A stretch of 64,000 bases of DNA from Chrysomallon squamiferum (Eukaryota; Animalia; Mollusca). Under the pieces are notes generated by a model that saw only the letters and a list, made by a program, of their open reading frames with translations, was not told the DNA's origin and ran no database searches. The stretch is taken from contig CM022679.1 of assembly GCA_012295275.1 (NCBI GenBank), forward strand, positions 26,784,001 through 26,848,000. The letters run 5' to 3'. This document shows positions 379 to 63,713 of this stretch, one piece after another. Each line of letters opens with the position of its first letter. Position 1 is the stretch's first letter. Made by a program: the position numbers and the translations under genes.

Positions 379-543
379 GCAGTACATTTTAATGTATCCA
401 TATATGATGAATGAAGATCTTGATACCCGTTTAAAACATGTGTGGGATAAAAAAGCTTTGTTATTGTTGGACGATTGTATTCGCATTGTGTACCAGGTGT
501 CTGTTGGGTTAAAGTTCTTGCACCAAGATGATGGACATAACAG
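379..543 (+). CDS. Gene A kinase exon, subdomains V-VIa (hinge, alphaE)
   Basis: tctttcag|g...aacag|gtatgg, 165 nt, phase 2-2; QYILMYPYMMNEDLDTRL...IRIVYQVSVGLKFLH, with the Tyr gatekeeper typical of IRAK/Pelle/RLK kinases. Confidence 0.9.
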
Positions 544-3500
544 GTATGGAATTAACATGATCAGTACAAGGAAGAAAACAACTACAGTTAATTTATGCAT
601 CTTCATTTTAGTTAAATAGCTTGCTTTAAGTGAATGTGTTGATAGATAGATACATTTGCACATGTACAATTGCAAGGCCATACATATCTTTATATATATA
701 TATTGCAGGATAGATGATTTTAGAGTTTGTGTCTAAAACAGATGCTAGTTCTTAGTTTGATATGTATGTAATATGAAATATGGTTAAGTCAGAACACATC
801 TTGTATATCACAAATAATTAATCTGTCCATTGCTTTAGCTGTGGAATTTTAACATGAATATTTCCATGACATTTGTTTTTCTGTCTCCCACAGAATAGAG
901 ATCATACACAGAGATGTGAAAGCTTCAAATATTTTGCTTGATGACATGCTGAATGCTCGACTCAGTGATCCAGGAATAGCAAGAGAGCTTGGTGGTCAGA
1001 CACATGTGACAATCACAAGTCCGATGGGCACTCCAGGATATGTTGATCCTGATGTTTTAAATTCAGGAGAGTTTAGACCAATAAACGATGTGTTTGGTCT
1101 TGGAGTGGGTGAGTGACCTGAAATATTATTCACCAACACACACATACACACATTCCATTACAACAGGCATGCCTTAACACAAATATATATGTATATAAAT
1201 ATACATATACACATAATACCTACATAAACACACACTGACACACACACACAAACACTCATACGCACATATACGCATTCACACACAGTTGAGAAAGCCTGTA
1301 TGCTGGAGTATTAACATTTTATTATGTGATGTTTAGATACAAACACACACCAATTTTTTGTACAAATACAAACAGATGCTATTCTATTCACATTACAATA
1401 TTAAGTACCAGTAGGAGACATATCATCTTTAATCACAATGTTTTCCACTTTATATAGATATAGATATATATATATTTTTTTAATTTTTTTTTTCTCCTAT
1501 CTGACATGTTATTTTAAATTTCTCTTCCTGCTTAATTTAAGCATTCCTCAAGTTTAAGTCTCCATTTTGTTTTCTCGTCAAACTCAGATTTAATATATTT
1601 TTATAACCATTTCACAGGTTATATTTTCATTACTGCTAAGTTTCTGTTTTCATGTTATTGCAGCCATATACTATTTGAAATCACTTATATCTATAAGAAA
1701 TGCCCTGACAAACTGCTGACATCTCTTGTGAGGTCTGCATCAGTGTTTTGTTTCTGCCAACACTGAACAACATGCAGCAGATTGATTTTTCAGTCAGAGG
1801 GTAACATTCTATTTCAGCCCCTTTTGTTGTCTGCAACGGTTCAAGTTTTTGCATGCACTTGTTATTTTTGTATTTTCTCACAATCAGTATTGAGTTCTTT
1901 GACTGTTCAGATTGTTGAAGTACATACCATGTAATGGTAGAACACTGTTTTCAGTTATTATGGCCATAATGAAATTGTTGTGACTCAATTGATTACAATT
2001 TAGCCGAGACTTAAAATACATACACAGCAACAGTAACAGTTTGGACTCTTGTTATTTTTTTTAAGCTTATATCGTGTGTGTGTGTGTGTTACGATGATTT
2101 GACTTAAATTATGCTTTTTGAATTAGGTCATATTTATAAACTAACTACAATAAATTTAATAACAACAATCTTCACCATTTCTACGAGCAACATTGGTTGG
2201 ATATAAAATAGGACATGGAATATAAATAAAATGAATATAAAAGATAATGACTTGAAAGTTATTTTGTTTATTCTAAATTATAAAAATCTATACAAGTTTA
2301 GTCCACTGTAATGACAGTCTATGAATAAGTCAAATTGATTTTATATTCCTGAATTAGTACTGAGTTATTTTAGTTTGTGTGTTTTGTGGAACAAATATAT
2401 CACTGATTTTTAGGGGTTTTATAGTTCGAATTTTAAGAATGTATACTAGTATTTCAAGTCTCTGAACACACCAAACTGATTTATAGTCTTGTTTTTTACG
2501 TTGTTGTTGTTGATTGTTTGTTGTTTTCTTTTGCTGTTGGTAGTGATAATATAACAAGAAATTATTTAACCATATTGAAGAAATGTGCTGTATTTCATCT
2601 GTTTGTTATGTTTTCAAATTGTTTGTTCTTTTGTGAAGTCTGTTGACTGTTTTGTGGAATTGTTTATTCATTTGTCAAATGTGTTCAATGTTTTATGCAA
2701 TTATTTGTTCTTTTCTGGCATGATCACTGCATTGTGGAATTTTTCACAATTTAATGTCTGTTCACATTTACAATTTAAGTTACTGAGCAGAAACTTATAT
2801 ATTATGTTATTAATATCTGTGTAATATATTACTACATTTCAGTTATGTTGCAACTGCTTTTAAATAAGCCAGCACAGATTGAAGTGGAAGAAAAAGGCAA
2901 GACAAAGAAGAAGAATTTACACCAAATGTGTAGAAAAAGAACTGAAAAAGACATTCTCAAAGAAGTAAGAAAATTTTAGTATACTTTTCTTTTATTACAA
3001 ACAAGTTGATTTGTTTCCATTCAGATATCTAATAAAAAAACACCTTTTTGTATGAGTCATGTCCTGTAAAGAATGTTTCAGTGTTAAAATTAAGGTTCGG
3101 TTTGTTTCACATTCACATTCGCTTGACCTTTGCAGTAGCCTGGGGAGTTTTTGGCTACTGGTATATCTTTCAGGAGGCTGAGAGAAAGGAAAGGTTTTTG
3201 TCTTTTTTGTGATACAGTTGCTGAAATTGTGTTTTCTTGTGTAAAGCTGTTGTGTGAATTCTTCCCAAATTCTCAGCAAAATTTTTGAAGAGTCTGAAGA
3301 GGCACTGACCAGCATATGTTGTTATTTCACCATTGGTAATAGTTAAAATCAAGGACTTAGACCTTTCAGAGTGCGAAAGTCGTGCCATCCAATATACCAT
3401 AGCTAATGTTATGATGATTTCTCTCTGGTCACTGGATAGTTGAATGAAAAAGAATCACTTGTTATGAACGCTGATGTGATCCTAGTTAAAAACAAAAGCA

Positions 3501-4725
3501 AACGATGGAAAGCTGAAAACCTAGTTCTGTAGCAGTTGTTAAAGTTACACTAAATATCAGTAATAAAATGTACTCAGATGCCATTCATCAGTATTTCATA
3601 TGTTTGTATATTTCACTTTTTCTATATTTTTTCTTTTTTTCAGGCTAAAGAACAACACAAAGATTGGCCAGAAGAATTATTAAAGAAATTTGTCAACTTA
3701 GCTTGCCAGGCAATAGCTGTTGCTGATGATCGAATTACTCTTGATATTCTCTCTAAACAGCTGCATGTGAGTTGGTCTGCAGATATAATTATCAGATTGA
3801 ATTCCTTTAAGCATTGTTGATTTGAGAAAACTGAAATTAGACTGATTTCATTTCCAATTAGTTGGAAATATGTTAATAATTTATTCCCCAGTCAAACTCT
3901 AGGAAGCCAAAAGAAAAGAACATTGTTAAAATAACCAAAAACCTTTTCATAATATCGTTTCTGTCCTCTCTAACACTGGTTTTTATTTATTTTTTATTTT
4001 TTTATTTTAATATTATTTAATTTTTTATTATTGTTATTGTTATTATTATTATTATTATATGTCAATGAAGGGACATATCATTAATTGTAATATATTTGTA
4101 TTGCTTTCAGTTCAAAATTTGTTTTCATTCTTTTACTATTTTTGTAACTGGGAGAGAAGGAATCTATAGTAAATCTTATTGCTTGTGAAATATTTATTTT
4201 AATTTTTAACAATTTGATTTATTTTTAAACAGGAACTTCTCATTAGTGCCAGTGCTGAATTGTGGAAATGTCCTTACAGTTGACAATGTGTGTGTCTTGT
4301 TTTGGCCAACCAATAGGTTAGTTTTATCTTATCCAAGAATTGTTGATATCACTTTAAACTACTGTTTTAGGATTGTTAAGATATTTGCAACAATTTGATG
4401 TCAGATGATTTTTTCAAAAAGATTAAGTTTTTGAAATTTGGCAGCTGTTCAGTATATAGATAGACAGATATATATATATTTTATTATTTCAGTGAAGCTG
4501 AAGCCACTTTCTCCAAACTGCAATGAAAACTGCACTCGCTTTTGCGTGGATTGTCTTTCCAGAAGCCAAGAAAACCCACTGTTCTGTCCACAGCATGGGG
4601 AATGTCAACCACCAATTGGTAAATACCTTAGTATTTTCTCTGTGATGTCAGTAACATTTGTAATCAGTGTTAACTTTAGAAATTACATTGTCAGTAGATT
4701 CACTTTAAATATTGTTATCTTAGCT

Positions 4726-6397: not shown

Positions 6398-8295
6398 TGC
6401 CAGTGTATATATACATACATACTTAGAGATGTAGACACACAGACACACACACCCCATATACACATACAGTTATGCATACATATATACATACATATTAAGA
6501 GACATATCCACACACACACACACACACACACATACTCGCACAGATCTACAGTAAAAGGAACGTCACAACAACGTGGGATGAAAATGGTTATGAATAATAA
6601 TCATAAAAATTGTTTATGTGGAAAATTTACTGAAGTACATACTATGCTGATCCATTTTATTTTGTGCTATGAATTACAGACTTGTAACTCATTAGTTTAC
6701 ATCGTATAACTGTTCTTTCATAATCTTGTGTGCCTGTCATTCAGTAGCCATTGCCTTCACCTGATTTCATTATGAAACTAAAATGATTTCACTTCAGGTC
6801 ACAATAACATATTTGTCCTGATGGTTTCTGGAATTGGTAAAAATCCAAAGGAGAAAATTATACTTAATTCTGATATTGATAGAATGAAAGAAATTCTGGA
6901 GGATAAACATATCATTGGTGTCAGGTAAACTTTCTTTTTATTATTGCTACTGCTTATCCAAAATCCTTGGTCACAAACCAAATCATAATGACAGTGTTCA
7001 TTCGTTACACTTCATGAATTTGCAAATCAGTTACTGGTTTCCCTTTACTAGGTTAAAAATAAAATAATCTACAAAGAAATGTAATGTGTAAGCATAAAAC
7101 AGCACATAATTGTGGTTGATTCGTTATGCACTTCTAAACTAAGAAAAACTGCCCAAAATTTGCAATGTTCTCTAGTCAAATAAAAACATTTAGAAATGGG
7201 TTTAGAGATATTTTATAGTTGTGGGTTTAGATAGATGTATCAGTGATATTAAATGCACATTACTGCACAATATAAATAAATATACTAATATATTTAATTA
7301 ATAAATTGTAAACATGTTTGACTTTTATCAAGTCAGATAACAAAATTGATAAATGGTATATTATTATTAAATAAACTCTTAATGTTTTATCACTGGGCAG
7401 TTTCTGTTAATAATGGACGCACATTTTTGATTTGCAGTTACTTGTATGCATTCATTAATCTGTAATAAAAATAATAATCAGTTTGTTAAAGAGAGCATTT
7501 GTCACATCATAAACACTTTCATTTGTTCAGTAAGAACTTTTTCATTTTTTGCTATTTTAGTCTGAATTAGTTGTTTATCATATATATTTTTATTATTTCC
7601 TTGTTTTTAAAAACTTTTTCAGTCCTGATAATATAACAGTGATCAGTGAAAAGGCTGATAAAAACAGTATTTTAAGTGCTGTTGATGAGATAAAGGAAAA
7701 AGTGGAAGGCCGGTTTGAAAGTCTTTTCATATTTTACTATACCGGACACCACAATATGGAAAGGGAATTTTTAACTGACGAACAGAAAAAATATCATCTA
7801 AAAGAAGAGGAACTGAAAGATCATTTCCGACAACTGAATGCCACATACATGTTGTTCATACTGGACACTTGTTATAGTGGGGGTGCTGACATTGGTGCAA
7901 AGGGTGATTATCAAGACTACTCACCTCCCTGCCTTTGGGATGTTTTTGAGTCTGATTTGCAGGCAAAAGGAGAAAAGTCTGTCTGTGTTGTTCAATGGTC
8001 TTCATCAGCTGAAAACCAGGCGTCTTATTATGAAGGAGACCAGAGTGCTTTTACCTATGCAATCATCAGTCAGCTGAAAAATGAATGTGTCATTTCTTGT
8101 AAAGACTGTTTTTACTGTAATGGTTTTCACAAAAGTGCAAAACACAAGGGCTATATTGACCTTAAAGAACTACATGACTCTGTTGAGTATCATGTTAGGA
8201 AAATTAAGAGTGGAAAACAGCTACCAAAACTACATAAAAAACCAGAAGATGCATTTATCCCACCATTTGCATATTATGTTCATAAAGATATGTAA
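379..8295 (+). CDS. Gene A (5' truncated by window): IRAK/Pelle-like kinase C-terminal half + RING-like finger + metacaspase/paracaspase-like C14 protease
   Basis: GT-AG exons 379-543, 894-1108, 2843-2964, 3644-3766, 4233(or 4280)-4316, 4493-4618, 6798-6924, 7623-8295(TAA). Phases are compatible throughout if the 4280 acceptor is used; the 4233 acceptor gives an early stop. Motifs: LMYPYM, IIHRDVKASNILLD, SDPGIAR, GTPGYVDPD, DVFGLGVVMLQLL, CxxC...CxxxCxxxCxxC...CPxH, FYYTGH, ILDTCYSG. Confidence 0.85.
894..1108 (+). CDS. Gene A kinase exon, catalytic loop to subdomain IX
   Basis: ccacag|a...gtgg|gtgagt, 215 nt; IIHRDVKASNILLDDMLNARLSDPGIARELGGQTHVTITSPMGTPGYVDPD...NDVFGLGV. Confidence 0.93.
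2843..2964 (+). CDS. Gene A kinase exon, subdomain IX-X
   Basis: tttcag|tt...gaa|gtaaga; continues DVFGLGV as VMLQLLLNKPA, matching the DVFSFGVVLLELLTGKPA consensus. Confidence 0.85.
3644..3766 (+). CDS. Gene A kinase exon, subdomain XI
   Basis: ttttcag|gct...cat|gtgagt, 123 nt, phase 0-0; DWPEELLKKFVNLACQAIAVADDRIT resembles the Pelle/RLK WP...LA..C......RP segment. Confidence 0.85.
4233..4316 (+). CDS. Gene A linker exon carrying the first CxxC of the RING-like finger (frameshifted from the 4233 acceptor, in frame from the 4280 acceptor)
   Basis: aaacag|gaa at 4232 gives ELLISASAELWKCPYS*; ccttacag|ttg at 4279 gives LTMCVSCFGQPI in phase with the next exon; donor g|gttagt at 4317. Confidence 0.65.
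4493..4618 (+). CDS. Gene A RING-like Cys/His zinc-finger exon
   Basis: tttcag|tg...attg|gtaaat, 126 nt, phase 1-1; KLKPLSPNCNENCTRFCVDCLSRSQENPLFCPQHGECQPPI. Confidence 0.8.
6798..6924 (+). CDS. Gene A C14 protease domain, first strand and helix
   Basis: cttcag|gt...gtcag|gtaaac, 127 nt, phase 1-2; NIFVLMVSGIG...LNSDIDRMKEIL matches the metacaspase ALLIGI...ND(A/V)xxM motif. Confidence 0.8.
7623..8295 (+). CDS. Gene A terminal exon: metacaspase/paracaspase-like peptidase C14 catalytic core
   Basis: ttttcag|t acceptor in phase with the previous exon; contains the 218-aa ORF. LFIFYYTGH (His codon 7747-7749), MLFILDTCYSG (Cys codon 7870-7872), VQWSSSAENQASY, SAFTYAI, IDLKELHDSVEYHV...QLP. AATAAA at 8321. 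Confidence 0.88.
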
Positions 8296-9302: not shown

Positions 9303-12150
9303 TTCCACAATGTTGGATCAGGATATGGTTTAGCTTATGAATTATCACCTATCATAGCTGAGGTTAATTATATTCTAGTACAGTACAAAAAAAATTCCTT
9401 GTATCACCATTGATCAGCATTCTAATTATCATTCAAGACATTATGAACCAAGTTACAGCTACCCTCAATCAGATTTAAAAAAAAAAAAAAAACTGTTTAC
9501 TTATCTACAGTAATGGGTGTACTGCGACTTTTTAAGATATATAAAGTTTAAATCCAGTTTGTATCAGGATTATTTTTTTTATTAAGATACATGAATCCAG
9601 TCTTCGAGAAAAAACAAATATTAATAAAAATTGGCATTTCTTTTTTTATCTTCAATCTGTTAACCCAGTTTTCTTAAACTACCTGTTTACATGACACCAA
9701 TCTCAACGTGCCAGTGCCTGCATTATTGTATCTAAAGTCTGGTATTCAGTATAGTTCTAGTGTTTTGGGATTGTTATTATCAGCACTCGTATGCTGTGTA
9801 TGTTAGTTGAGAATGAATTTTGGACCTTTGAAACTATCTTGAATACAAAATGAACTTAATGTGTTTTGGAAATTCAACTGGAACAAATCTCGTAGACAGT
9901 CTCTGTATCTCAGTATGTATTGGTTATCAAGTTCACCATTTTCGGGATTGCAGAAATTAATAAAGATACTGAATTTAATGATTTTATCAAGCTCGCTGTT
10001 TTGGGGATTCAAGAAACTAATAAAGATATCGGGATTAGAAATGTTAATATGTTCTGTCTTTGGGATTGCAGAAAAAATAAAAAAAATAGTGGGTTTAAAG
10101 GTATGTACAAACAAGTATTGCAAGCAAAAGACAATGTGGGATAATGATGGATAATGGATCCACAAATAAAAGGCTGTTGTAAATGTTGATTAGCTTCCTG
10201 ACACAGAGCAGCTGCAGTTCATCTACATCTGTCTCATCTTCAACTTCTGAACTATTCTTGACAACAATTTTATCATCCCCTTTCGAGAAAATGTCCCACA
10301 ATTCTAAAATAATCGTTTTTCCCCTTTGTTCAAGTTGTTCATCTGTGATATCTGTTTTTGTGAAAAAGAATCAAATTTGAATTATGAAACAGATGAGCTA
10401 GCCTGAATATTTTTAAGAGTGACAGCTTGCAGTTCACATTAATGAGATTGTGTGGAACACAGTGAAACCAAAATATGCAAGAATAATTTGCACTTGTAAA
10501 AAATAATTAAAAGCAAACACTTATAAATCTAGTACATTGCTTGTCTTAATCAAGTACTAGGGGTAGAAGGAGAATGCCAGCTGAAATGTGGCACTATAAC
10601 GCTCATCTTATTTGATCTGGACTGAATATTTCTCTTTGACTAAAGCATCCTTCTAAACAGATTCTGTTATTTTAGTTTTAGTTAATTATAAATTAATCAT
10701 AATCTGCACATTTGTGAATTTTTATAAACAGTGAATTGGCAAAGAAATATTTTACATCATCTTAATTGTGATTTGGAGAAATTTTGAACACACACACACA
10801 GTTGGGCAAACAACTATTTCAAGTTAATGCCCACTAATGGAGCACAATGGACGTCTGATCATGGAGGATTTTGTTCGTGTGCTTCCAACAGGGAACTATT
10901 TATGTCGAGGACATTTTTTTTTTTTTTTTTTTGAAATAACGTTATCAAGACCATGCCTGTGTTGGAATTGTCATCCATCCATCATATGGACAGCTGTTGT
11001 TCACTAGTTACTGCCTGATAGATTTCAGGATCTGTTCTCCTCAGTTGACCCTTTATTTTTCTCCTTCCAGCACAGAAACAGGACTGCTTTTCTAAAGTAT
11101 CTGTGAAGCTGCTTAAAACTTGCATCAATGTAACAGGTGACATTTTATAATCATCTACAGGACTGTTTTATTATTAAGTAAAAAAGGAAATATGCTGCTT
11201 TTCAGCTCCAAGAGCTAATTTGTCAGTTAATAGTAATTAGGTTCTTTAGTCAAATAAGGAAGAAAATATAAACCACTACTTTTTAAAAGGACACCAGACA
11301 CCAGAGGTTCCGTTTATGGCTAAAGTGCAACAGATTACAGATCAACATGCTAGTGACATCTTTCTGAACTTTTGATCCAGATCCAGGTTTATCAAAGCAT
11401 AAGCAGTTGAAAGCAGTTCTTGTTAATATCATTATTATAATTAGGTGCAGATTTTCTGTATTTGTTTTTTAATTACAACAAGTTATATTTGTAAATAAAG
11501 AGAAATAATTTACAAAAGATGGTGCATATAAGTGCTGCAAATTAATATACTTTTATAATCAATATTTGTGATAATTTTATAGATATTTTTTCTTTCTTTC
11601 AGTTTTTGTCTTTATCATTTTTTTTAAATCAGTTTGTAATAGTAATAGTATTTTTACATATTAATAAAAAATTTTGTATTTTCAAATTTTTCTTATTTTG
11701 TTTGTTAATTGAAAATAAAGATAGCTGAGATAAATAATATTTTTATAACAATACAAGTTTATGAAACTAAGTATGTTTCATCCCATGTTTCTAAAGGGCA
11801 TTAAGAAAGTAGGAAAGGAAAGAAATGATTGTACATTTTCCTTACAAGTAAACAAATAAAATGTTGAAATATTTATTATTATTATTATTATTATTATCTT
11901 TTTTTTTTCTTTTTTTTTCGTTTTCGTTTTGTTGTATTAGGAAATGGTCTAGCTTATGATTTACTACCTATAATATCTGAGGTAAATAATAGTTCAGGAC
12001 AATACAAATAAACCATAGATCCACATTCTAATTATCATTCAAGATATTATAAATGAAGTTACATCTGCCCTTACTCATATATTTTTTTTAAAAACTATAT
12101 TTTCTACGATTTGTTAAGATATAAAAAGTTTAAATCCTGTTTATATCAGG

Positions 12151-12207
<57 letters not shown>

Positions 12208-12221
12208 GAATCCAATTTGTA

Positions 12222-12256
<35 letters not shown>

Positions 12257-13130
12257 CTTTAATCTGTGACCCACAGTTGTTGTTTTTTAAAACTATCTCT
12301 GTTTATATGTCACCTATCTCAACATGCCAGTGCCTGCAGTTATTAGCAGTTACATATGAATAGTTGAATATGAATCTTGAACGTATGAAACTGTCTTGCA
12401 TTCAAAATAGTATCTTGGAAATTTAACTTGAACAAATCTTGTAAACAGTCTCTGTTATCAAGTTGACTGTCATTGGGACTGCAGAAATAAATAAAAATAC
12501 TGGGTTTAAAGATATGTACAAACAATATGTGTCCTGACTGTTTTCCAAGCTAAAGACAATGTTGGACGATGATGGGTAATCAGTCCACAAATAACGATGT
12601 GCCTAGCAGCTATTGTGAATGTTGTTTAGCTTCCTGGCACACAGCAGCTGCAATCCATCTATAACTCTGTCTCATCTTCAGCTTCTAAACTATTTTTGAC
12701 ACCAATTTTATCATCTGCTTTCGAGAAAATGTCCCAAAATTCGAAAATAAAGTCTGTTTTATCCCCTTGGTCAAGTTGTTCATTTGTGATATCTGTTTCC
12801 AAAAAAATCTGTTTTTTTAATGATAACGCATCCAAATTGTAATTCTGATACTAATGAACTATTCTGAATCTCTTCAAGAGTGACAGCTTGCAGTTCACAT
12901 GAAAGAGATTGTGCGGAACAAAATGAAATCAATATGTGTAAGAATAATTTGTAAAAAATAATTATAAGCAAACACTTAGATGATAATAAACTATTGAAAT
13001 ATTTTACATCATCTTAATTCTGATTTGTGGAACATTTTGAATGCTGTAATTACCTGTAAAAACACACATCGTTGAGCAAATATCCATATCTAGATAAAAC
13101 CCACTGTTGGAGCTCAGTTTGATGTTGGAG
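8350..13130 (+). repeat. Older ~2.7-kb tandem duplication downstream of gene A
   Basis: ~8350-10860 vs ~11130-13130 share blocks such as cagctccaagagcta, ggctaaagtgcaaca, ttcgagaaaatgtccca; a third partial copy lies at 41990-42980. Confidence 0.8.
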
Positions 13131-17110: not shown

Positions 17111-17142
17111 AGTTTTTGAAAATGTCAGTAACATATTTACTA

Positions 17143-21331: not shown

Positions 21332-21380
<49 letters not shown>

Positions 21381-22187: not shown

Positions 22188-22534
<347 letters not shown>

Positions 22535-23185: not shown

Positions 23186-24676
23186 ATGGCTAATGAACCC
23201 GATATCTGCAGTAAGTATATCTGTCTTTCTTTCTGTAGTGAACAAGTCATTATGACAAATGAAATAAATATGTTGGTTGATAAGTGTTTATTGTCATAAC
23301 AAGTACAAAACTTTATTTTGTCTGATAACCTTGACCTGTTGCAGAAACCAGTAATCATTGCATGAAATAAGAAAAACTATTCAAAAAAAATCGAACAAAG
23401 CAGTTAGTGTGTGTGTATGAATTAGATATTACAAATCTTATTGTCGATTATAAATAAGATTATCAAATGTTAAGTGAATTTAACTTGACTTACTTATCAG
23501 TTATATAATTGTCATACAGTGTTCACCGTTAAATATTTCCAGTCAAAATAGTATCTAGCTTGATGGCAGTGGCAGTTTTACATTCATTTTTCAGTTGTGA
23601 AAAATAACTGGGAAATTATATTTTAAAAGTAGATTTTCTTTGTTGAGTGTTACAATAATTTTAGATTCTGTGAGTTATTTTGATGATTAAAAAACAAACA
23701 AAAAACACTAACATTATGATGAGAAAAATATGTTTAATAATTGTGGATAAAAACAGTGGTTAGTGATGTAAATATGAACAAATATATATATGATATATAT
23801 ATTGATTTCTGGTGCACAGTTATTAATAATATCAACAGTATTTGATATAAAGAAATACTTAAAATTGTACAGTATATTAATGTATAATCATTTTCACTTA
23901 AGATAAACGTTGATGTGGTGAAGATGTGATCCAAATAATTATAATTATTGTAGAAGGTAAAACTAGAATAGCATTGCCATGTCGGTGGCAGTCATCATTG
24001 GTTCCTGGTAAGCCACTGTCGCACTCGCTGCCTTTCAAGGATAACTTGAAGGTGTCCATAGCTTGAAATAAAGATGGCCAAATTCTCTGTCACAGTCAGT
24101 GGCTAATGATTCAAGTTCCCAGAGTAGCAAAGAGCCAGTAGCTGGAGATAAAGATGGCCAACATTACAACACCACAGCCAAGAAGATGAGCATTAAAGAA
24201 ACGAATGAATATTTTAAGGAGGATAATAAATTGTGTTCTGGTGTAGGAGGAACAGTTTATAAAGATTCAGATTTTTATTGCATGTTTAATTTCAAATACA
24301 TGTAGAAAATCTAGCCATTTGTTTAAGACGTTGCAAAACATGTTTCACGAAGTCTGCCACTTTGATTAATTTTTTCAGTTTTCTTACCATCAGCAAAATT
24401 AAAATGTTGCCTACCTGTTTAATTTTCTTTTCTTTTCTTATGCTTTGTTGTTAATCAAAAATTATTCCAAAAAATATATATCGCAATAACTTGGAAGTAT
24501 ACAAAATTTATTTAATCCTTTCATTGGATTCATATTAACTGAAACTTTTCATAACTTGAATATTCATGGTGCATTATTCATTTGTTTTGCTATTATAGGA
24601 TGTAAGCAGTATAATGACGCTGACATGGTTGCATAATGATATTGATAAAGAAAGCATGCAGACATCTTTTGCAATG
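23186..24676 (+). pseudogene. Relic D: truncated pseudogene of the same family
   Basis: ATG exon 23186-23210; DED exon deleted at ~23340; linker/Gly-loop exon ~23954-24264 has an in-frame TGA and a donor mutated to AT (aaag|attcag); subdomain II exon 24599-24676 has a deletion through the VxxK motif; no later exons found. Confidence 0.8.
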
Positions 24677-24698
24677 GTAAAGCTTACCACATATTTTA

Positions 24699-24737
<39 letters not shown>

Positions 24738-33078: not shown

Positions 33079-36000
33079 ATGGCTTCTGCAGCTGATTTCA
33101 GTGGTAAGTATGACTGTCTGTAGACAATGAGTCATTATGGCAAATGAAATAAGCATGCTGGTTGATAAGTGTGTATTGTCATACAAAGTACAAAACATTA
33201 TTTTGGCTGATAACCATGAGCTGCTGAAGTAGTTTACCATTATCTGAAATAATTCTGATGTCTCAGAATGGTGACTTGCTTTTTCTGTTATTTTCTTTTC
33301 AAGATGACGAAATGCGAGAAAAGCTTTCATCGATAGCAACAAAACTTGAATCTGAGGAACTAGAAAAATTAAAATTTATTTTTCGAGATGCTCTCACGGT
33401 AAAGGACAAAATCAAAACAGCACAAGATCTTTTTGATATATTATGTAAACGTAAAATAATAAGTCGAAAAAATATGGCATCCCTTGTAAAGGCTTTGGAG
33501 TTGATTCAGAGTGAAGATGCCATTGATATGATTGAGACCTTTTACAGAGAAGAGAAAAGGGACATCTTAAAAAATAAATCATGTGTTTCTGAATTTACTT
33601 CTCAACTTTATAAATTTGGTTCTGACATGAATGAAGAAGATGTTGAAAAATTGGCTTTTTGTTATAAAATTAAACAATATAACAATCGATGGGAACTGCT
33701 GATTCTGTTAAGCAAGAAAGGTGATTTGAAAAATGTGAAAAGTATTGAAAAGGTTAAAAAAAAGCTGGGGATTCCTTCAAATGAGAGACCAGCACATCAG
33801 CAGGAACATCGTCCAACTGAGCAATCATCAGAAACCGGTAATCATTGAATGAAATAAGAAAACAATAGTATCTATGTTGTATATGAATTAGATATTTATA
33901 TTACAAATATAATTTCCATTATAAACATAATTATAAAAATAAGTGAATTTAACTTGACTATTAGATACCTATCACAGTTAGATATTTCCATTCAAAATAG
34001 TATCAGCTTAGTTGCAGTTTTGCAATCCGTTTTCAGTTGTGAAAAACACCTGGGGAAATTGTAGTTTAAAAGTAGTTTTCTTCGTTGAATGTCACAATAA
34101 TGCAAGATAGTGTCGTAGGTACTTTGGGTGAAAAAACCCCAAAACATTGTGATCAGTAAATTGTGGTTGATAATTGTGGATAAAAAACAATAGTCAGTGA
34201 CGTAAACATAGCACTAAAATAAATACATTGATTTCTGGTGTTTAGTTAATAATAATATCAACAGTATTTAATATGAAAAAAATATATAAAAGTTACTTGA
34301 AATCGTATGATGTATCAACGTAAAATCATTTTCATTTAAGATAAACATTGATGCGGTGAAGATCTAATCAAGATAATTATAATTATTGTAGCAGGTCAAA
34401 ATGTAAGAGAATTACCAGATGTGCCTGAGGACACTGTGATTTATCACCATTGCCCTGACTACTCAAATTCCCAGTATAGAGAAGAGCCAAAAGCTGTGGA
34501 TAACAATGGCCAACCTGACCACACCACAACCAAGAAGATGAGAATAACAGAAATGAAGGAATATTTTGAGGAGAGTAATACATTAGGAGCCGGTGGAAAT
34601 GGAACAGTTTATAAAGGTTCCGATTTTTATTGCATATTTAAATTTCACATACATGTTGAAAATGTATTCCCAAACATGTTGTAATGAAATCTGCCAATTT
34701 TATTAATCGTTTCAGTTTTATCTGCAATCAGTAAAATTCCAATGTTGCCAACATTTTAATTTTATTTTCTTTTCTTACACTTTGTTATTACCAAAAATTA
34801 TTTCAAGAAAGATATATATCAGAATAACTTGGAAATATACAAAATTAATTTAATCCTTTTATTGGTAGGATCCTGGATGCATATTAACTGTTTATAAGTT
34901 TATTTTAATATGTATCACTTATAAGTAGTTTTTCCTGGTTCAGTGTCGCAACAATTTGAGATCCTGTGAAATCCATTTTGGGCTAAAAATAAAAGAGCTA
35001 AAAAATTTAAACATTGTGATCAGCAAATCATGATTGATAATTGTGGATAAAAACAGTTGTTAGTTATGTAAATAGTGTACTAAAATAAATACATAGATTT
35101 CTGGTGCATAATTATTAATAATATCAACTATACTTCATATAAGAAAATAATTCTTAAAATTGTACAATGTATCAATATAAAATCATTTTCATTTAAGATA
35201 AACATTGATGCAGTGAAGATCTAATCCAGATCATTATAATTATTTAGCAGGTCAAAATACAGCAGTAGTCCAGCGTGTGCCTCAGGGATCATTGGATTAT
35301 TCGCTGTCATCGTCAAAGGCTGATGATTCAAATTACCAGTATAGCCAAAAGCAAGTAACTGTGCATATCTATGGCCAATATGGCAGCATCACAGTGTGTA
35401 AATCTTGTTCAAAGTGCAGACAACATTTGCCTGATGGTTAGTTTCATCTTACCTGAGAACTGTTGACATCACTTTAAACTGCTGTTTTAGCATTGTTAAC
35501 ATATTTACAACAATTGATGTTTTGTTTATATGTTTATTTTAATATGCATGACTTATAAGTAGTTTTTCTTGGTTCAGTCTCACAACAATTTGAGATCCTG
35601 TGAAATCCATTTGGGGTAAAAAAAAAAAAGATAAAACAATTTAAACATTGTGATCAGCAAATCATGATTGATAATTGTGGGTAATAACAGTAGTTAGTGA
35701 TGTAAATAATGTACATAAATAAATACATTGATTTCTGGTGCATGGTTATTAATAATATCCAAAAATATATAATATATAAAGAAATATATATTACTTAAAA
35801 TCATGTGATGTATAAATGTAAACTCATTTTCACTTAAGATAAACATCGATGCATTGAAGATGTAACCGAGATAATTATATCACAAAAAAATGTGGCTGAT
35901 GATTCGAATTCCCAGTGTTGCCTAGAGCCAGTAGCTGTGTTTATCAATGACCACCCTGGCAGACAACATTTTTCTGATGGTTAGTTTCATCTTACCTGAG

Positions 36001-39000
36001 AACTGTTGACATTGCTTTAAACTGCTGTTTTAGCATTGTTAACATATTTAAAACAATTGATGTTTTGTTTATATGTTTATTTTAATATGCATCACTTATA
36101 AGTAGTTTTTTTTGGTTCAGTTTTACCACAATTTGAGATCTTGTGAAATCGATTCTGGGATAAAAAAGTAAAAAAGCGAAATATATATAAACATTGTGAT
36201 CAGTAAATCATGATTGATAATTGTGGATAAAAACAGTTGTTAGTGATGTAAATAGTGTACTAAAACAAATACATGGATTTCTGGTGCAGAGTTATTAATA
36301 ATATCAACTATACTTCATAAAGAAAATAATTCTTAAAATTGTACAATGTATCAATATGAAGTCATTTTCATTTAAGATAAACTTCGATGCAGTGAAGATC
36401 TAATCCAGATCATTATAATTATTATAGCAAGTCAAAATGCAGAAGCAGCTCAACACGTGCCTCAGCAGACGTTGGATTATTCGCTGCCATCGTCAGAGGC
36501 TGATGATTCAAATTACCAATATAGCCAAAAGACAGTAGCTGTAGGTTACGATGGCCAACCTGACCACACCACAACCAAGAAGATGAGAATAACAGAAATG
36601 AAGGAATATTTTGATGAGAGTAATAAGTTAGGAGCCGGTGGAAATGGAACAGTTTATAAAGGTTCTGATATTTATTGCATATTAAAATTTCATCCACATG
36701 TAGAAAATGTATCCAGTTGCTTAAGAAGTTGCAAAATATGTTTCATGAAGTCTGCCACTTTTATCTACCATAAGTAAAATTTAAATGTTGCCTACATGTT
36801 TAATTTTCTTTCTTTTCTTATACTTTGTTATTAACCAAAAATTATTCCAAAATATATATATCAGAATAACTTGGAAATATACAAAACGAATTCAATCCTT
36901 TTATTGGTAGGATCCTGGATTCATATTAACTGAAACATTTCATTACTTGAATATACATGGTGCATAATTCACATTTTCTGTTATTTATTACAGGATGTAA
37001 GCAGTATAATGACTGTGACGTGATTGTCAACGTTTTGCATAATCATAATGGTCAAGAAAAGATGCTGGAATCTTTCAAAATGGTAAAATTACCGCACATT
37101 TTTATCTTTTTATTATTATTGTTATTATAATTTTTTATTTGTCAGTGTTATCAGAAAGCAAAACAGTTATTTCCACTATAAGAAATCTTTTTTCTTTATT
37201 TTTTATTGTTTTAGTATGATGCATACACACGTACAAAGCACATAGCAAAGTCTTTGCTGCTGCTATTGTGACGCTTGAATGCATATAGTTCAAGAGATAA
37301 CCGTAGAAGATGGATCCTGTTACCCATTACAAATCAGCTTTGCATAGCTCCCCATGTTCCATGACATTGTAACTAAATATTTGTGTTGCAGCAAGAGAAA
37401 ACCACGCTAAATGCAAATTTACAAATTTATTATTTATTTACTTTTCTGATTATAAAACTAGAAAAATAATGTCACAAAACAACTGTCGGTGAATGCCCTC
37501 ATAATGTACGTCAAAGTGTTACGTCTGCATGCAAATTTTGCCAGTTCATACAGTGTTGTTTGGGTGTATGGCTGCACAAGGTTCTTGACGTGCCTCAGAA
37601 AAATATTTGAATATGAGATATGTCTATTTTTTTCAGGAGATGATCTCATCTAGAAAAAAGCATCCTTTTTTGCTGCCATTGTTAGCTTATTGTGATGAGA
37701 AGCAAGGGATAAACAGGTAATTACAAAGGAAAAACTCGAATAAAACTGGGATCAGGCCATTCAATTGGAACTGAGAGTTATTGACTTGTATACTAGTTTA
37801 TCACTGTACTACCACTTGGCTCACAATTGAAACAGAAGCATAACAATAAAATAAAAAGGACTTTTTTATTTTTTATTTATTTTTTATTTTTATATAAAAT
37901 CGAAATGTTCACTATAATTAATGGAATATATATGGCAAATGTTCAAATCAAACACCCATTCTTACTTAGTTATGTCGAATATAGTCATTTGCCTTGTTAT
38001 CACATGGGATTGGAAATGAATACTGACTGCTGAGCCTAGAAAAAAAAGTTTGGTGTGTATGTGTGTGCATGTCTCTTTGATTGTTAACATGAGTTTGATA
38101 ATTATCTACAGAAGAGATTCCAGTCATGATTTTATTCAAGCGAAGGTTTAACAGATGGAACCCATCCACTCCCAAAAATGACACTTGGTCTGCATGAAGA
38201 AAATATTTATCTTTAATTTTAAAATATTTCTTTCATTTTTATAAAGTTTTATTTTTGATATGTAGAATAAAAAATTAAAATGCTAAATAATCCATTTTTA
38301 TTTGTTTAAACAGCTAGTACACATTCTAAAAAGACTGTTTGCCATGGTTCTTTCTATGGATTAAGGTCAAAGAAACAATTCTATGTTTTCAGGCAGTGCA
38401 TTTTAATGTATCCATATATGAAGAATAAAGATCTTGATACCCGTTTAAAAGAGGTGTGGGAAGGAAAAGCTACATTATTGTTGGAGGATCGTGTTCGCAT
38501 TATGTACCAGGTGTCTGCTGGGTTAAAGTTCTTGCACCAAAAAGATGGAAATAATGGGTACGCAATTAACATGATTAAGATAAACAAAGAAAACAACTAC
38601 ATTAATTAATATTTCTTCAATTTAGTTAAATCATCTTGCTCTGAGTGTTTGTGCAGATAGGTAGATAGATAAATAGATAGATGGGCAGGCCTATCTGTGT
38701 GTAAACAATCTGTACATGAATATTGCAGGATGGATGATTTTAGAGTTTGTATCTAAAACTACTATTTGTTCCTTGTTAGATAAAAATATACTAATTTATG
38801 TAATATGAAATATGGTTAAGTCAGAACTCATCTTGTATGTCACAAATAATCTGTCTGTTGCTTTAGCTGTTGAATTTTAACATGAATATTTCCATGACAT
38901 TTGTTTTCCCTCTCCCATAGAATAGAGATCATACACAGAGATGTGAAAGCTTCAAATATTTTGCTTGATGACATGCTGAATGCTCGACTCAGTGATCCAA

Positions 39001-39135
39001 GAATAGCAAGAGAGCTTGGTGGTCAGACACATGTGACAATCACAAGTTCGTTGGGCACTCCAGGATATGTTGATCCTGATGTTACAAGTTCAGGAGAGTT
39101 TAGACCAATAAACGATGTGTTTGGTCTTGGAGTGG
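33079..39135 (+). CDS. Gene B (3' end lost at or in the assembly gap): tandem DED + linker + IRAK/Pelle-like (pseudo)kinase
   Basis: Exons 33079-33103 (ATG), 33304-33837, 34395-34616 and/or 35251-35436 and/or 36428-36661, 36994-37082, 37637-37716, 38393-38557, 38921-39135; all GT-AG and phase-compatible. The last two exons are direct paralogs of gene A exons. Confidence 0.85.
33304..33837 (+). CDS. Gene B tandem death effector domain (DED-DED) exon
   Basis: ttttcaag|at...accg|gtaatc, 534 nt, phase 1-1; LSSIATKLESEELEKLKFIF...TAQDLFDILCKRKIISRKNMASLVKALELI (DED1) and VSEFTSQLYKFGSDMNEEDVEKLAF...WELLILL (shorter DED2), like a caspase-8/cFLIP prodomain. Confidence 0.85.
34395..34616 (+). CDS. 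Gene B linker + Gly-rich loop exon, copy 1
   Basis: tag/cag NAGNAG acceptor, donor aaag|gttccg, phase 1-1; ends YFEESNTLGAGGNGTVYKG. Confidence 0.7.
35251..35436 (+). CDS. Gene B chimeric linker exon ending in a CxxC (no Gly loop)
   Basis: ttagcag|gt...gatg|gttagt, 186 nt, open, phase 1-1; QNTAVVQRVPQGSLDYS...ITVCKSCSKCRQHLPD. Confidence 0.55.
36428..36661 (+). CDS. Gene B linker + Gly-rich loop exon, copy 2
   Basis: attatag|ca...aaag|gttctg, 234 nt, phase 1-1; ends YFDESNKLGAGGNGTVYKG. Confidence 0.8.
36994..37082 (+). CDS. Gene B kinase subdomain II exon (VAIK Lys replaced by Asn)
   Basis: ttacag|ga...atg|gtaaaa, 89 nt; CKQYNDCDVIVNVLHNHNGQEKMLESFKM. Confidence 0.8.
37637..37716 (+). CDS. 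Gene B kinase subdomain III-IV exon
   Basis: tttcag|gag...aacag|gtaatt, 80 nt; EMISSRKKHPFLLPLLAYC resembles the E....HxNLVxLLGYC consensus. Confidence 0.82.
38393..38557 (+). CDS. Gene B kinase subdomain V-VIa exon
   Basis: 165 nt, paralog of 379-543; ILMYPYMKNKDLDTRL...RVRIMYQVSAGLKFLH. Confidence 0.88.
38921..39135 (+). CDS. Gene B kinase catalytic-loop exon (DPR at the DFG position)
   Basis: 215 nt, paralog of 894-1108; HRDVKASNILLD...SDPRIAR...GTPGYVDPD. Confidence 0.9.
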
Positions 39136-40782: not shown

Positions 40783-40982
40783 NNNNNNNNNNNNNNNNNN
40801 NNNNNNNNNNNNNNNNNNNNNNNNNNNNNNNNNNNNNNNNNNNNNNNNNNNNNNNNNNNNNNNNNNNNNNNNNNNNNNNNNNNNNNNNNNNNNNNNNNNN
40901 NNNNNNNNNNNNNNNNNNNNNNNNNNNNNNNNNNNNNNNNNNNNNNNNNNNNNNNNNNNNNNNNNNNNNNNNNNNNNNNNNN
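40783..40982. other. Assembly gap (200 N)
   Basis: Run of N. Confidence 1.
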
Positions 40983-42405: not shown

Positions 42406-42440
<35 letters not shown>

Positions 42441-52335: not shown

Positions 52336-52700
52336 ATGGCTAATGAACCTGAAATCTGCAGTAAGTATATCTGTCTGTCTTTCTGTAGTGAACTAGTCAT
52401 TATGACAAATGATATAAATATGTTGGCTGATAAGTGTTTGTTGTCATAACAAGTACAAAACATTATTTTGTCCAATAATCTTGAGCTGTTGCTGAAACCA
52501 GTAATCATTGCATGATATAAGAAAAATTATTTAAAAAAAGAAAAACAGACAAAAGAACTACCCAAAACCAATTAGTATGTGTGTGTATATGAATTAAATA
52601 TTACAAATCTTATTGTAAAGAAAATTATCAAATGTTAAGTGAATTTAACTTGACTATTATGTACCTATTACATAATTGTCGTATTCTGTGTTCAGTTAAA
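52336..52700 (+). pseudogene. Relic E: ATG exon with the same DED deletion as relic D, then truncated
   Basis: atggctaatgaacctgaaatctgca|gtaagt at 52336-52360; junction gctgttgctgaaaccagtaatc at ~52490; homology to relic D stops at ~52700 next to a Tigger fragment. Confidence 0.7.
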
Positions 52701-59938: not shown

Positions 59939-62900
59939 ATGGCTTATGCAGCTGATATCGGTGGTAAGCATGTCTGTCTATAGTGAATTAGTCATTATGA
60001 TTAAATGAAATAAATATGCTGGTTGATAAGTGTTTATTGCCATACAAAATACAAAACAATAACCTTGAGCTATTAATACATTTTACCATTATCTGAAATT
60101 GTTCTCATAACTGAAAATAGTGACTTGCTTTTACTGTGTTATTTTCATTTGAAGATACAGAAATGCAACATTATTGCCCAATAATTTGAGATAATATGGA
60201 GGATATTTTGCTAGGTTTTGTTGTTGTTTTTTAAAAAAGAAAAAAGCTAGAAATTTTAAACATTATATTTATAATTACAAAAACATGATAAGATAATTGT
60301 GGATAAAAACTGTGATTAGTGATGTAAATAGCATACAAAAATAAGCATGTTGATTTCTGGTGCATAATTATTAACAATATCAACAGTATTTAATACATCA
60401 AAAAATATGTTATTAAACTGTACAGTGCATAAATGTATAATTATTTTCACTTAACATAAACATCAAGCTGTGAATGTGCAATCCAGATGATTATTTTAGC
60501 AGGTCAAAATGTAACAGCTTTCCCAGATGGGACTGACTCATCATTGTTATGCAATAACGATTCACGTTCCCAGTCTAGTGAAGAGCCAGTAGCTGGAGAT
60601 AAAGATGGCCAACATGACAACATCACAGCCAAAAAGATGAGCATAACAGAAATGAATCAGTATTTTAAGGAGGATAATAAATTGTGTTCAGGTGGAGGAG
60701 GAACAGTTTATAAAGGTTCAGATTTTTATTGCATGTTTAAATTTCATACACATGTAGAAAATCTAGCCACTTGTTTAAGACGTTGCAAAACATGTTTGAC
60801 AAAGTTTGCCACTTTTATTAATCTTTTCAGTTTTATCTACCATCAGTAACATTTATATGTTGCCTACATTTTTCGTTTTCTCTTTTTTCCATATGCTTTG
60901 TTACTAATCAAAAATTATTCAAAGAAATATATATTGCAGTAACTTGAAAATATACAAAATGAATTTAATCCTTTTATTGGTAGGTTTCTGGATTCATATT
61001 TATTGAGATTTTTCATAACTTGAATATACTTGGTGCATAATTCAGATCTTTTGCTATTTATTATAGGATGTAAGCAGTATAATGACTGTGATGTGGTTGT
61101 CAAGATTTTGCATAATCATCCTGATAAAAAAAAGATGCTGGAATCATTCACAATGGTAAAGTTTACCACTTTTTTTTCTGTTTTCTTTCTCTTTTTATTA
61201 TTTGTTTTAGTTGTTATCAGAAAACAAATACGTTACTTCCACTATAAAAAAAATCTTTTATATTTCTTGTTTTTAATTTTTTGTGTTCCATACACACATT
61301 CAAAGCACATACCAAAGTCTTTTATGCTGCTATTGTGAAGCTTGAATGCATATGGGTCATTCCGTGTCAAATCACCCAATGGGTTAAACCCAACCGTCTC
61401 AGATTTGTATAAAACTTGGTATACTTGTTGACTGGGATCCCACAGCACCAAATCTGACATATTAGCCCAATCGGATCAGTGGTGTGGGAGATATGGCCCA
61501 CCGAATATTGAGATTTTTGGCAAAAATGGGCATGACCACCAACCTTAGAACCCTCACATCTCAGGAACTACTGGGCCAATCTTCATAAAATTGGTATTGT
61601 TGAAAAGGCAATATTGCAAGGATTCCAAATCTGCCATTTTTGTTCGGTTTGGAAAATATTGGAGTACATTGACCTTTTGACCTTTGCTATGACCTTGAAA
61701 TTGACGGTGTGGATCACGTGACCTTGAGATGACCTTTATTGAAATTTAATCTCCCACATGTTAACTAAAACATATACAAATTTCCTGGGTGTAATATTTT
61801 TGGTTTAGCCACAATATAGATTTAAAAAATGCACATACATGAAAATAACACATTTTCAGCCATTAACATCTGATTAACTAAAACCTGAATGATCGATTCT
61901 GGATGCTAGGAATCACCATCTTTCTTGATCATCGAGTAAGACTTTGTAGGCCTACATGTATGCATAAAGTTCACATAAACTTGAGAGAACTAGGTGTTCC
62001 ATGACAGTGTGACTAAATATTTGTTGTGCTGCAAGAGAAAACCAGACTAAACACAAAATTTACAAATTTATTATTTATTTATTTTTCTGAATATAAAACT
62101 TTAGAAAAATATCTCACAAAACATCCCCTCAAAATGTACATGAAAGTGTGAGGTGATCACCAACCACTTAATGCCACTGTTTTAGCCAAGGCTAATCATT
62201 ACCCCTCTCAAATTTGAATGCTAATGTACTTTTCAGAAAATACAAATAAAATGCCTTAGGTACAAAATATATATATAAAAATTAAAAAAATTACAATTCT
62301 ATAAATTAGGGCATTCTGACATTCTGTGGCCTGCTACTCAAAATAGCTGTTTCCATCTTTGGCCTGATTTTCATGTGCTGGGTCTCATTTCAGAGTTTTG
62401 GTTTATCTAATAGTTAATTTCAAATATTAATTATGTCAAATCACAATATTTGATCAGCTTGTATATGCTGTTGATACTTGGGTGTTATGTCTGTACAACA
62501 CTGTGTCAGCTCTTGCTATGATGATGATTTTGCTCGACTTTTATGTCTATATATTTTATCAGCTGATGCTGCAATATTGATGTTTTTTGAGTGTTATGTC
62601 TACGTAACATTTTACCAGTTCATACAATGTTGTGTGGGTGTATGGCTGCACAAGTTTTTTGACATGCCACAGCAAAATATTTGAATTTCACAAATGATTT
62701 TATATTTTTTTCAGGAGATGATTTCATCCAGAAAAAAGCATCCTTTTTTGCTGCCATTGTTAGCTTATTGTGAGGAGAATCAAGAGGAAAATGGGTAATA
62801 ACAAAGAAAATACAGGAATGAAGCTGATTGTGACATCAGGCCATATAACGAGAATTATTGACTTGTTTACCAGTCATTCCTTTATCAACTAATCAAATAG

Positions 62901-63713
62901 AAAGGACCTTTTATTTTAACTTTTTTGTTTTTTAATTTTATATAAAATCTAAATGTTAACTGTAATTAATGGAATATATATGGCAAATGTCCAGATCAAA
63001 CATCCATTGGCACTTAGTATGAAGAAATATATTGATAAAATGATAAATCTGACAGATTTTATGAATATAATCATCTGCCTTGTTATCATAAGAGACTGGA
63101 AATGAATACTGACTGCTGAATCTAGTTGTTACATTTACTGTGTTGACAAATAAATAAAAAAATTGTGTTGTCTCTTTCTTAACACCAGTTTGGTAATTTT
63201 TTTCAGTAGTTGTTAGTTTTCTTATTTTATTAATTAAAATTTTTATAAGCATCTACAGATAGGATTCCAGTCATGATCTTTATTCAAGCAAGGCCTTAAT
63301 AGATGGAACCCATCCACTCCCAAAAATGTCACTTAGGTGCAGAGAAGAAAATGTTTATCTTTAATTTTAAACTATTTATCTTTAATTTTTAAAATGTTTT
63401 ATTTTAGATATATGTAGAATAAAATGCTAAATAAAGCATTTTCAAATGTTTAAACAGCTAGTACACTTTCTAACAAGATACTATGGCATGATTATTCCTT
63501 TACATGTATTAATCATTTGATGGTAAAGAAACGGTTCTATTCTTTCAGGCAGTACATTTTAATGTATCCATATATGAAGAATGAAGATCTTGATATCCGT
63601 TTAAAACATGTGTGGGATAAAAAAGCTACGTTATTGTTGGATGATTGCATTCGCATTATGTACCAGGTGTCTGTTGGGTTAAAGTTCTTGCACACAAATC
63701 ATGGAAATAACGG
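59939..63713 (+). CDS. Gene C (3' truncated by window): DED-less IRAK/Pelle-like kinase paralog
   Basis: Exons 59939-59963 (ATG), 60503-60715, 61067-61155, 62715-62794, 63549-63713; phases compatible if the DED-exon stub at 60155 is skipped. LCSGGGGTVYKG, VVVK, EMISSRKKHPFLLPLLAYC, LMYPYM. Confidence 0.78.
61354..61960. mobile_element. Probable DNA-transposon-derived intron insertion in gene C
   Basis: Higher-GC block starting GGGTCATTCCGTGTCAAATCACC, absent from the matching gene B intron (~37285); right end approximate and family not assigned. Confidence 0.45.

What the first reader, a model, noticed from the sequence alone, without database searches (positions are those of the whole stretch)
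894..1108. All six substitutions between genes A and B in the catalytic exon are non-synonymous and fall in or next to the activation segment
Seen: 894-1108 vs 38921-39135 differ at 6 of 215 nt, changing G>R (DPG/DPR), P>S, M>L, L>T and N>S, with no synonymous change, while the neighbouring introns carry many differences and indels. Known: activation segments of Pelle/RLK-family kinases are effector targets, and plant decoy kinases (PBL2, ZED1/ZRKs) exploit that. Inference: the kinase may be a diversifying sensor or integrated decoy wired to a protease. The counts are small.
Basis: partly seen in the sequence, partly recalled or inferred. Interest (0 to 1): 0.7.

Follow-up and report, generated by a model that had tools for sequence, protein, structure and literature searches.

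The report
Mollusc kinase-protease cluster, exon swapping
The six changes are real but no more one-sided than chance, and one copy has lost key kinase residues; the more interesting thing is the gene family itself, a mollusc protein joining death-effector, kinase and protease-like parts that likely acts as a one-piece cell-death switch.

Summary
Observation confirmed: 6 of 215 nt differ, all non-synonymous, in five codons. That alone is unremarkable (P 0.14-0.26 under neutrality). The real anomaly is that this exon is 2.8% diverged while the introns are 17-21% diverged, and exon and intron trees of copies A, B and C disagree (P=1.4e-4): gene conversion is the likely cause. In four public runs of the same species every contig covering 1057 and 1061 carries B's letter, so most differences are variants on the assembled A haplotype at loop codons that also vary across homologues. 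G27R hits an invariant glycine, and B also lacks the catalytic beta3 lysine and stops at an assembly gap: probably kinase-dead. A-type transcripts are spliced in two RNA runs. The genes belong to a mollusc family with DED-DED, Pelle/IRAK-type kinase, Cys-rich and metacaspase-like His-Cys domains (5 homologues: one snail, two freshwater mussels). Diversifying selection is not shown but not excluded: codons 43 and 55 each show three residues, and an expressed paralogue has a divergence peak in the loop, though with pN/pS near 1. The plant-decoy analogy is untested.

The parts
894..1108 (+). Gene A catalytic exon (k5): HRD, DPG, activation segment (codons 25-53), alphaEF, start of alphaF
   Evidence: Pfam Pkinase 1e-14; spliced to both neighbours in RNA contigs of 2 of 2 RNA runs laid
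379..543 (+). Gene A exon k4 (hinge to alphaE)
   Evidence: GT-AG; RNA contigs identical to it, joint across intron 544-893
2843..2964 (+). Gene A exon x6 (alphaF onward)
   Evidence: RNA loose end behind 1108 matches its start; aligns to P0001
3644..3766 (+). Gene A exon x7 (kinase C-lobe end)
   Evidence: GT-AG and alignment to P0001; splicing not tested
4233..4316 (+). Gene A exon x8, linker into the Cys-rich domain; one base out of frame near 4281 from the upstream acceptor, in frame from a second AG at 4278-4279
   Evidence: not checked against reads
4493..4618 (+). Gene A exon x9, Cys-rich putative zinc-binding domain
   Evidence: 59% identity to P0001, Cys/His pattern shared with 5 of 5 homologues
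6798..6924 (+). Gene A exon x10, start of caspase-like domain
   Evidence: 49% identity to P0001
7623..8295 (+). Gene A last exon, caspase-like (C14) domain with TGH / DTC His-Cys dyad
   Evidence: Pfam Peptidase_C14 7e-11; dyad in A and 5 of 5 homologues
33079..33103 (+). Gene B first coding exon
   Evidence: open 447-codon frame through k5
33304..33837 (+). Gene B tandem DED exon
   Evidence: Pfam DED, 2 stretches, 4e-14; only copy in the window
34395..36661 (+). Gene B exon 3 (linker plus Gly-loop), internally repeated about four times; 36428-36661 used in the model
36994..37082 (+). Gene B exon k2; beta3 lysine replaced by Asn (37029-37031)
   Evidence: VIVN versus VVVK in copy C and P0001, AIK/VIK in 4 bivalve homologues
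37637..38557 (+). Gene B exons k3 (37637-37716) and k4 (38393-38557)
38921..39135 (+). Gene B catalytic exon (k5) with DPR (change at 39000)
40783..40982 (.). Assembly gap; B's likeness to A ends just before it and no copies of x6-x11 follow
59939..63713 (+). Copy C: first exon, DED exon missing, exons 3-k4 open, beta3 lysine kept; runs off the window before k5
   Evidence: 93% like A over 43-840
23187..24676 (+). Copy D, decayed fragment (stops and deletion in exons 3 and k2)
52336..52360 (+). Copy E, first exon only

Best explanation
A and B are copies in a tandem mollusc gene array whose catalytic exons were likely made near-identical by gene conversion, and the six differences are likely recent variants: five at loop positions that tolerate change, one (DPG to DPR) in a copy predicted to be kinase-dead. 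Shown: exon far less diverged than introns; exon and intron trees disagree; B's letters at codons 43-56 are common in other animals of the species; B lacks the beta3 Lys and DFG Gly; A-type RNA is spliced; the family joins DED-DED, Pelle/IRAK-type kinase, Cys-rich and caspase-like domains. Inferred: conversion as the cause; B as a decaying or regulatory copy; the intact protein works like a single-chain RIPoptosome, in which tandem DEDs oligomerise and bring kinase and His-Cys protease domains together to trigger cell death or immune signalling.
For: P(6/6 N) 0.14-0.20. k5 2.8% vs introns 16.8-20.8%; zero synonymous differences where 8.5-10.5 are expected. Three-way sites in exon k4: 13 support (A,C), 12 conflict; introns 103 vs 14; P=1.4e-4. 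B's repeated exon 3: 3/84 differences vs 53/269 in the next intron. At 1057 and 1061 all contig depth in 4 of 4 runs carries B's letter; 1021 in 4 of 4 and 1024 in 3 of 4 runs. The three contigs whose differences can all be accounted for (records 15, 22, 30) keep G at 973 (deduced from counts). Codons 33-44 and 54-58 are the most variable in 5 homologues (mean 3.0 and 3.2 residues vs 1.8); Gly27 is invariant. Loop of expressed paralogue F vs A: pN 0.37, pS 0.34. Fragments D, E, DED-less C and the gap show turnover. Architecture.
Against: Pooled k4+k5 A/B pN/pS is 3.6 with P=0.056. A/C differ more in exon k4 (13/165) than in introns (19/559), P=0.028. Three residues each at codons 43 (P/S/L) and 55 (L/T/I), and 7 N vs 1 S among A-type haplotypes (P=0.38). 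Paralogue F has 13 of 36 nt changed in codons 33-44 vs 8-10 of 111 around them (P<=3e-4), which is also what selection against conversion leaves (PMC3924837, passages). B keeps an open 447-codon frame. 52 variant rows and 62 contig rows were not shown. No biochemical step of the mechanism was tested.
Confidence: 0.6

Rival explanations
1. Diversifying selection on the activation segment: the kinase domain is a bait or sensor for pathogen enzymes that modify kinase loops, and modification fires the fused protease; conversion shuffles loop variants between copies.
For: Multi-allelic codons 43 and 55, 7 N vs 1 S; divergence peak in F's loop; pooled pN/pS 3.6, P=0.056; atypical motifs family-wide (DPG in A and P0001, no APE Glu in 7 of 7 sequences covering it), as in ZRKs, which lack at least one motif (PMC9539561, passages); kinase-inhibiting effectors trigger RIPK1/caspase-8 in mammals (PMC11781737, passages).
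Against: No test reaches P<0.05 for pN>pS; loop pN/pS about 1.06; exon k4 is as variable (14-22 differences in 119-145 nt among contigs); AvrAC hits conserved loop residues (PMC9539561) and A/B do not differ at the aligned Ser/Thr; no effector or pathogen is known for this locus.
Confidence: 0.25
2. B is a maintained kinase-dead, protease-less DED scaffold that tunes the full-length protein, as cFLIP tunes caspase-8.
For: Open frame with intact tandem DED exon; two catalytic motif losses; no protease exons seen. B-like introns occur in both DNA runs laid.
Against: No contig in the two RNA runs could be assigned to B among the rows shown (contigs cannot show absence); the missing 3' half may lie in the gap; B/C pN/pS 0.82 over k2-k4 fits weak constraint.
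Confidence: 0.1
3. Assembly artefact: polishing mixed reads of similar exons, or A's private letters are errors.
For: A's letters at 1057 and 1061 were seen in 0 of 4 runs; a gap and a one-base frame slip lie nearby.
Against: A's k4 and the start of k5 match RNA contigs with 0 differences; other animals show their own residues at the same codons; B-like intron joins the shared exon start in DNA contigs.
Confidence: 0.05

Closest known systems
Gigantopelta aegis LOC121378532 (P0001) and unionid mussel proteins P0009, P0018, P0019, P0020 (all uncharacterised)
   Same: Kinase, Cys-rich domain and caspase-like domain with His-Cys dyad in one chain in 5 of 5; DEDs by Pfam in 3 of 5; P0001 shares DPG and is 68% identical over exon k5
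   Different: P0001 adds a CARD and a long insert; mussel proteins keep DFG; only one homologue was found in the snail, so the array may be lineage-specific (search sensitivity is limited)
IRAK4/Pelle and plant RLK/RLCK kinases (BRI1, BAK1, BIK1, PBL2)
   Same: Best PDB matches of the kinase
   Different: DEDs instead of a death domain; fused protease; DPG and no APE glutamate
Caspase-8/cFLIP and the RIPK1-FADD-caspase-8 RIPoptosome
   Same: Tandem DED, kinase and clan-CD protease are the same kinds of parts (PMC11874512 and PMC11781737, passages)
   Different: One polypeptide here; protease has DTCYSG rather than QACxG (motif recalled) and resembles metacaspase/legumain
Kinase-prodomain caspases of Macrostomum lignano and Eisenia andrei (PMC11463336)
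   Same: Kinase fused to a caspase in lophotrochozoans (passages)
   Different: Those branch among true caspases and are described as species-specific; no DED plus kinase plus Cys-rich form, and the word metacaspase occurs 0 times in the main text; supplements not read; relationship not tested
Plant decoy kinases PBL2 and ZED1/ZRKs
   Same: Same kinase superfamily, genomic cluster, atypical motifs (PMC9539561, passages)
   Different: They are separate proteins guarded by the NLR ZAR1 and hit at conserved residues; no NLR, effector or modification is known here

Membership tests
Pelle/IRAK/RLK kinase superfamily | Kinase sequence closest to RLK/IRAK | tested here: met
   Top PDB hits BRI1, BIK1, SOBIR1, BAK1, PBL2, IRAK4; no tree was built
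IRAK proper | N-terminal death domain | tested here: not met
   Pfam finds DED (B, P0001, P0009, P0020) and CARD (P0001), no Death domain; A's N-terminus is outside the window
Active protein kinase | beta3 lysine | tested here: inconclusive
   Kept in C and 5 of 5 homologues, Asn in B, outside the window for A
Active protein kinase | HRD Asp and DFG Asp/Gly | tested here: inconclusive
   A: HRD, DPG; B: HRD, DPR
Active protein kinase | APE glutamate | tested here: not met
   Absent in 7 of 7 sequences covering it
Plant-type decoy kinase (PBL2/ZRK) | Modified by a pathogen effector and read by a guard | not testable with these tools
   Definition from PMC9539561 and PMC11781737 passages
Plant-type decoy kinase (PBL2/ZRK) | A/B differences fall on the effector-modified Ser/Thr | tested here: not met
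   Changes align with the VM and MS positions of BIK1, not its ST (identity of the modified residues recalled)
Gene under positive selection | dN/dS significantly above 1 | tested here: inconclusive
   k5 P=0.19; k4+k5 3.6, P=0.056; B/C 0.82; F/A 1.4, P=0.37; no site model run
Caspase-like clan CD protease (Pfam C14) | C14 profile above cut-off and His-Cys dyad | tested here: met
   42.7 bits vs 21.4; dyad in A and 5 of 5 homologues; fold hits legumain and metacaspases from a low-confidence model of the P0001 domain, pLDDT 54
True animal caspase (caspase-8 type) | QACxG active-site motif (recalled) | tested here: not met
   DTCYSG in A and P0001, DCCHA in mussels
Caspase-like clan CD protease (Pfam C14) | Proteolytic activity and specificity | not testable with these tools
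   Needs assay

The most novel reading that the evidence does not exclude
Molluscs have a single-chain death switch (DED-DED, atypical Pelle-type kinase, Cys-rich domain, metacaspase-like protease) whose kinase loop is a bait for pathogen enzymes, diversified by selection and shuffled between tandem copies by gene conversion: an animal integrated kinase decoy wired straight to a protease.
Probability: 0.15. Interest if true: 0.8.

Novelty: new variant of a known kind. Interest (0 to 1): 0.38.

Why it matters
The six substitutions by themselves matter little. The family may: it puts the part types of the mammalian RIPoptosome into one chain, with a metacaspase-like rather than caspase-8-like protease, in both a snail and freshwater mussels. 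I found no description of it in four completed literature searches aimed at it (listings read, passages of four papers), and a recent survey of lophotrochozoan caspases does not mention it in the passages seen. If the loop variation proves selected, it would give a testable animal case of an integrated kinase decoy.

Tried and rejected
No whole genome is held, so paralogues outside the window could not be collected and no codeml-type test was possible. The search of protein representatives and the ESM Atlas did not complete, so the family's range rests on three word-index searches that found 5 members; absence from other phyla is not shown. The read lay over gene A's 3' half was not obtained, so the x8 frame slip and the kinase-to-protease splice in this species remain open. 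The VIA-align wide fold search had not finished. PDB sequence search with the protease exon found nothing significant; the profile gave only weak metacaspase hits (E 0.29-0.69) and a probably spurious phage coat hit. Literature searches returned 0 papers; 73 timed out. Earlier scan findings: none. No tRNA. Rejected: a plant origin (homologues are molluscan); DPG as a lesion of A (shared with P0001); treating A vs B as two diverged functional paralogues. P0021 (E 6e-4, unrelated Pfam set) and the 15 other kinase hits were dropped from the family set. Contig depths were not used as copy number or expression.

Full report
1. Observation. The two exons align without gaps and differ at 6 of 215 nt, all non-synonymous, in five codons: G27R, P43S, M44L, L55T (two adjacent bases), N56S. 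Introns around them differ at 16.8-20.8% with indels. Against solved kinases the activation segment is codons 25-53, so three changes are inside and two just behind it. The description is correct.

2. Is it more than chance? With 162 non-synonymous and 51 synonymous sites, six non-synonymous hits of six has P=0.14-0.20 (0.19-0.26 as five events); Fisher P=0.19. Clustering is borderline and post hoc (P=0.015-0.083). The strong signal is different: at intron-level divergence 8.5-10.5 synonymous differences are expected and none is seen (P about 1e-5 to 1e-4), and k5 is far less diverged than the exon before it (6/213 vs 20/162, P=4e-4).

3. The locus. The window holds a tandem array on the + strand. 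A begins before the window and runs through kinase exons, a Cys-rich exon and a caspase-like C14 domain ending at 8295. B (33079-39135) has a tandem DED exon, a repeated exon 3 and kinase exons to k5 in an open 447-codon frame; its likeness to A stops just before a 200-N gap and no copy of A's six 3' exons follows. C lacks the DED exon and is 93% like A; D and E are fragments. The whole architecture in this species is therefore pieced together from A and B. It is seen in one chain in a Gigantopelta aegis protein (CARD, DED, kinase, C14) and in four unionid mussel proteins; all 5 keep the Cys pattern and the His-Cys dyad. The animal is thus most likely a gastropod (68% identity to P0001 over k5; inference).

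4. Gene conversion. In introns flanking k4, 103 sites group A with C and 14 conflict; in exon k4 it is 13 versus 12 (P=1.4e-4). B's duplicated exon 3 copies differ at 3/84 sites in the kinase part and 53/269 in the next intron. Exons are mosaics while introns keep the duplication history; interlocus conversion is the usual cause (inference; background in PMC3924837, passages). Purifying selection alone does not explain missing synonymous differences.

5. Other animals. One search listed 11 runs, 9 holding the stretch; four (two RNA, two DNA, two studies) were laid on 365-1118 (40 variant rows shown, 52 not shown; 32 contig rows shown, 62 not). In 2 of 2 RNA runs contigs identical to A's k4 are spliced to k5, and k5 to x6, so A-type genes are transcribed and spliced. 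At 1057 and 1061 all contig depth in 4 of 4 runs carries B's letter; 1021 appears in 4 of 4 and 1024 in 3 of 4. So five of the six differences are variants among A-type haplotypes, and the assembled A is the odd one at codons 55-56. Codon 43 reads P, S or L, codon 44 M or L, codon 55 L, T or I; one synonymous variant (1041) also occurs: 7 N vs 1 S without G27R counted separately, P=0.38 (the seven include 973). The three contigs whose differences can all be accounted for keep G at 973, so G27R was seen only in B (deduced from counts; hidden rows could hold it). A further paralogue, F, is in 3 of 4 runs including one RNA run; a differently spliced k4-k5 joint is in both RNA runs. By hand count from the rows shown, F differs from A at 13 of 36 nt in codons 33-44 against 8 (up to 10) of 111 around them (P<=3e-4), but pN 0.37 and pS 0.34 in the loop. 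Exon k4 is just as variable among contigs (14-22 differences in 119-145 nt).

6. Which residues. Among the 5 homologues codons 33-44 and 54-58 are the most variable parts of the exon (mean 3.0 and 3.2 residues per column vs 1.8), while Gly27 is invariant. P43/M44 align with BIK1's VM and L55/N56 with its MS, not with the Ser/Thr before them; that the ST pair is the AvrAC site is recalled, while PMC9539561 (passages) states that AvrAC modifies conserved loop residues. B has also lost the beta3 lysine that C and all 5 homologues keep. Two motif losses make B probably kinase-dead (established kinase chemistry; not assayed). DPG is shared with P0001 and the APE glutamate is missing in 7 of 7 sequences, so the family is atypical throughout.

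7. Results against my reading. Pooled k4+k5 pN/pS between A and B is 3.6 (P=0.056); A and C differ more in exon k4 than in introns (P=0.028); two codons are tri-allelic in about five animals; and a divergence peak under conversion is a published signature of selection (PMC3924837). The kinase domain seems to evolve at omega near or above 1 (B/C 0.82, A/C about 1.1, F/A 1.4), as expected of either relaxed or diversifying genes. The data cannot separate the two; they do show the effect is not confined to the six sites.

8. How it likely works. Tandem DEDs form filaments that activate caspase-8 by proximity (PMC11874512, passages), and RIPK1, FADD and caspase-8 guard kinase signalling against YopJ (PMC11781737, passages). 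I infer that the intact protein is a single-chain version: DED oligomerisation clusters kinase and protease domains, the kinase (active or not) gates the protease, and output is cell death or immune signalling. The protease has a C14 profile and dyad; a low-confidence model of the P0001 domain (pLDDT 54) matches legumain and metacaspases best. None of these steps is tested. A's x8 is one base out of frame from the upstream acceptor but in frame from a second AG, so whether A makes the full fusion is open.

9. Novelty and verdict. Kinase-caspase fusions are reported in Macrostomum and Eisenia (PMC11463336, passages; supplements not read). I found no description of the DED-kinase-Cys-rich-metacaspase-like family in searches (listings; passages of PMC8195603, PMC11874512, PMC11463336, PMC9389742), which is weak evidence given the library's coverage. 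The finding as framed is ordinary small-number variation on a converted exon, with one copy disabled; the family is a new variant of death-fold/caspase signalling proteins and deserves the follow-up. Interest 0.38.

Noticed in passing
window 4233-4316: Gene A exon x8 is one base out of frame between kinase and Cys-rich domain, with an in-frame second acceptor at 4278-4279; error, lesion or a splice choice between kinase-only and full fusion.
   Followed up: partly
window 59939-60715: Copy C has lost the DED exon, but exon 1 and exon 3 are both phase 1, so a DED-less kinase could still be spliced in frame; the RNA contigs with A's k4 carry a k3 end identical to C's.
   Followed up: partly
window 34395-36661: Exon 3 of B (linker plus Gly-loop) is repeated about four times with its intron; two copies are complete, and the last has lost its usual acceptor but has an in-frame AG three bases upstream.
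   Followed up: partly
window 7623-8295: The protease domain has metacaspase-like motifs (TGH, DTCYSG) rather than animal caspase motifs and sits mostly in one long exon; its origin, possibly non-animal, was not traced.
   Followed up: partly
window 11829-25665 vs 42080-53912: A large segmental duplication at about 82-94% identity carries the upstream region and first exons of copies D and E.
   Followed up: no
window 15941-17111, 45170-46019, 26874-27222 vs 53921-54621: Inverted repeats of several hundred bases around microsatellites, probably non-autonomous transposons.
   Followed up: no
window 19958-20418 and 49100-49572: Duplicated decayed reading frames on the minus strand with a Cys/His pattern that recalls a THAP zinc finger of P-type transposons (recalled, not searched).
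   Followed up: no
loose ends at 899 and 936: Both RNA runs hold a short match to the HRD region flanked by unrelated sequence: another, more distant kinase transcript.
   Followed up: no
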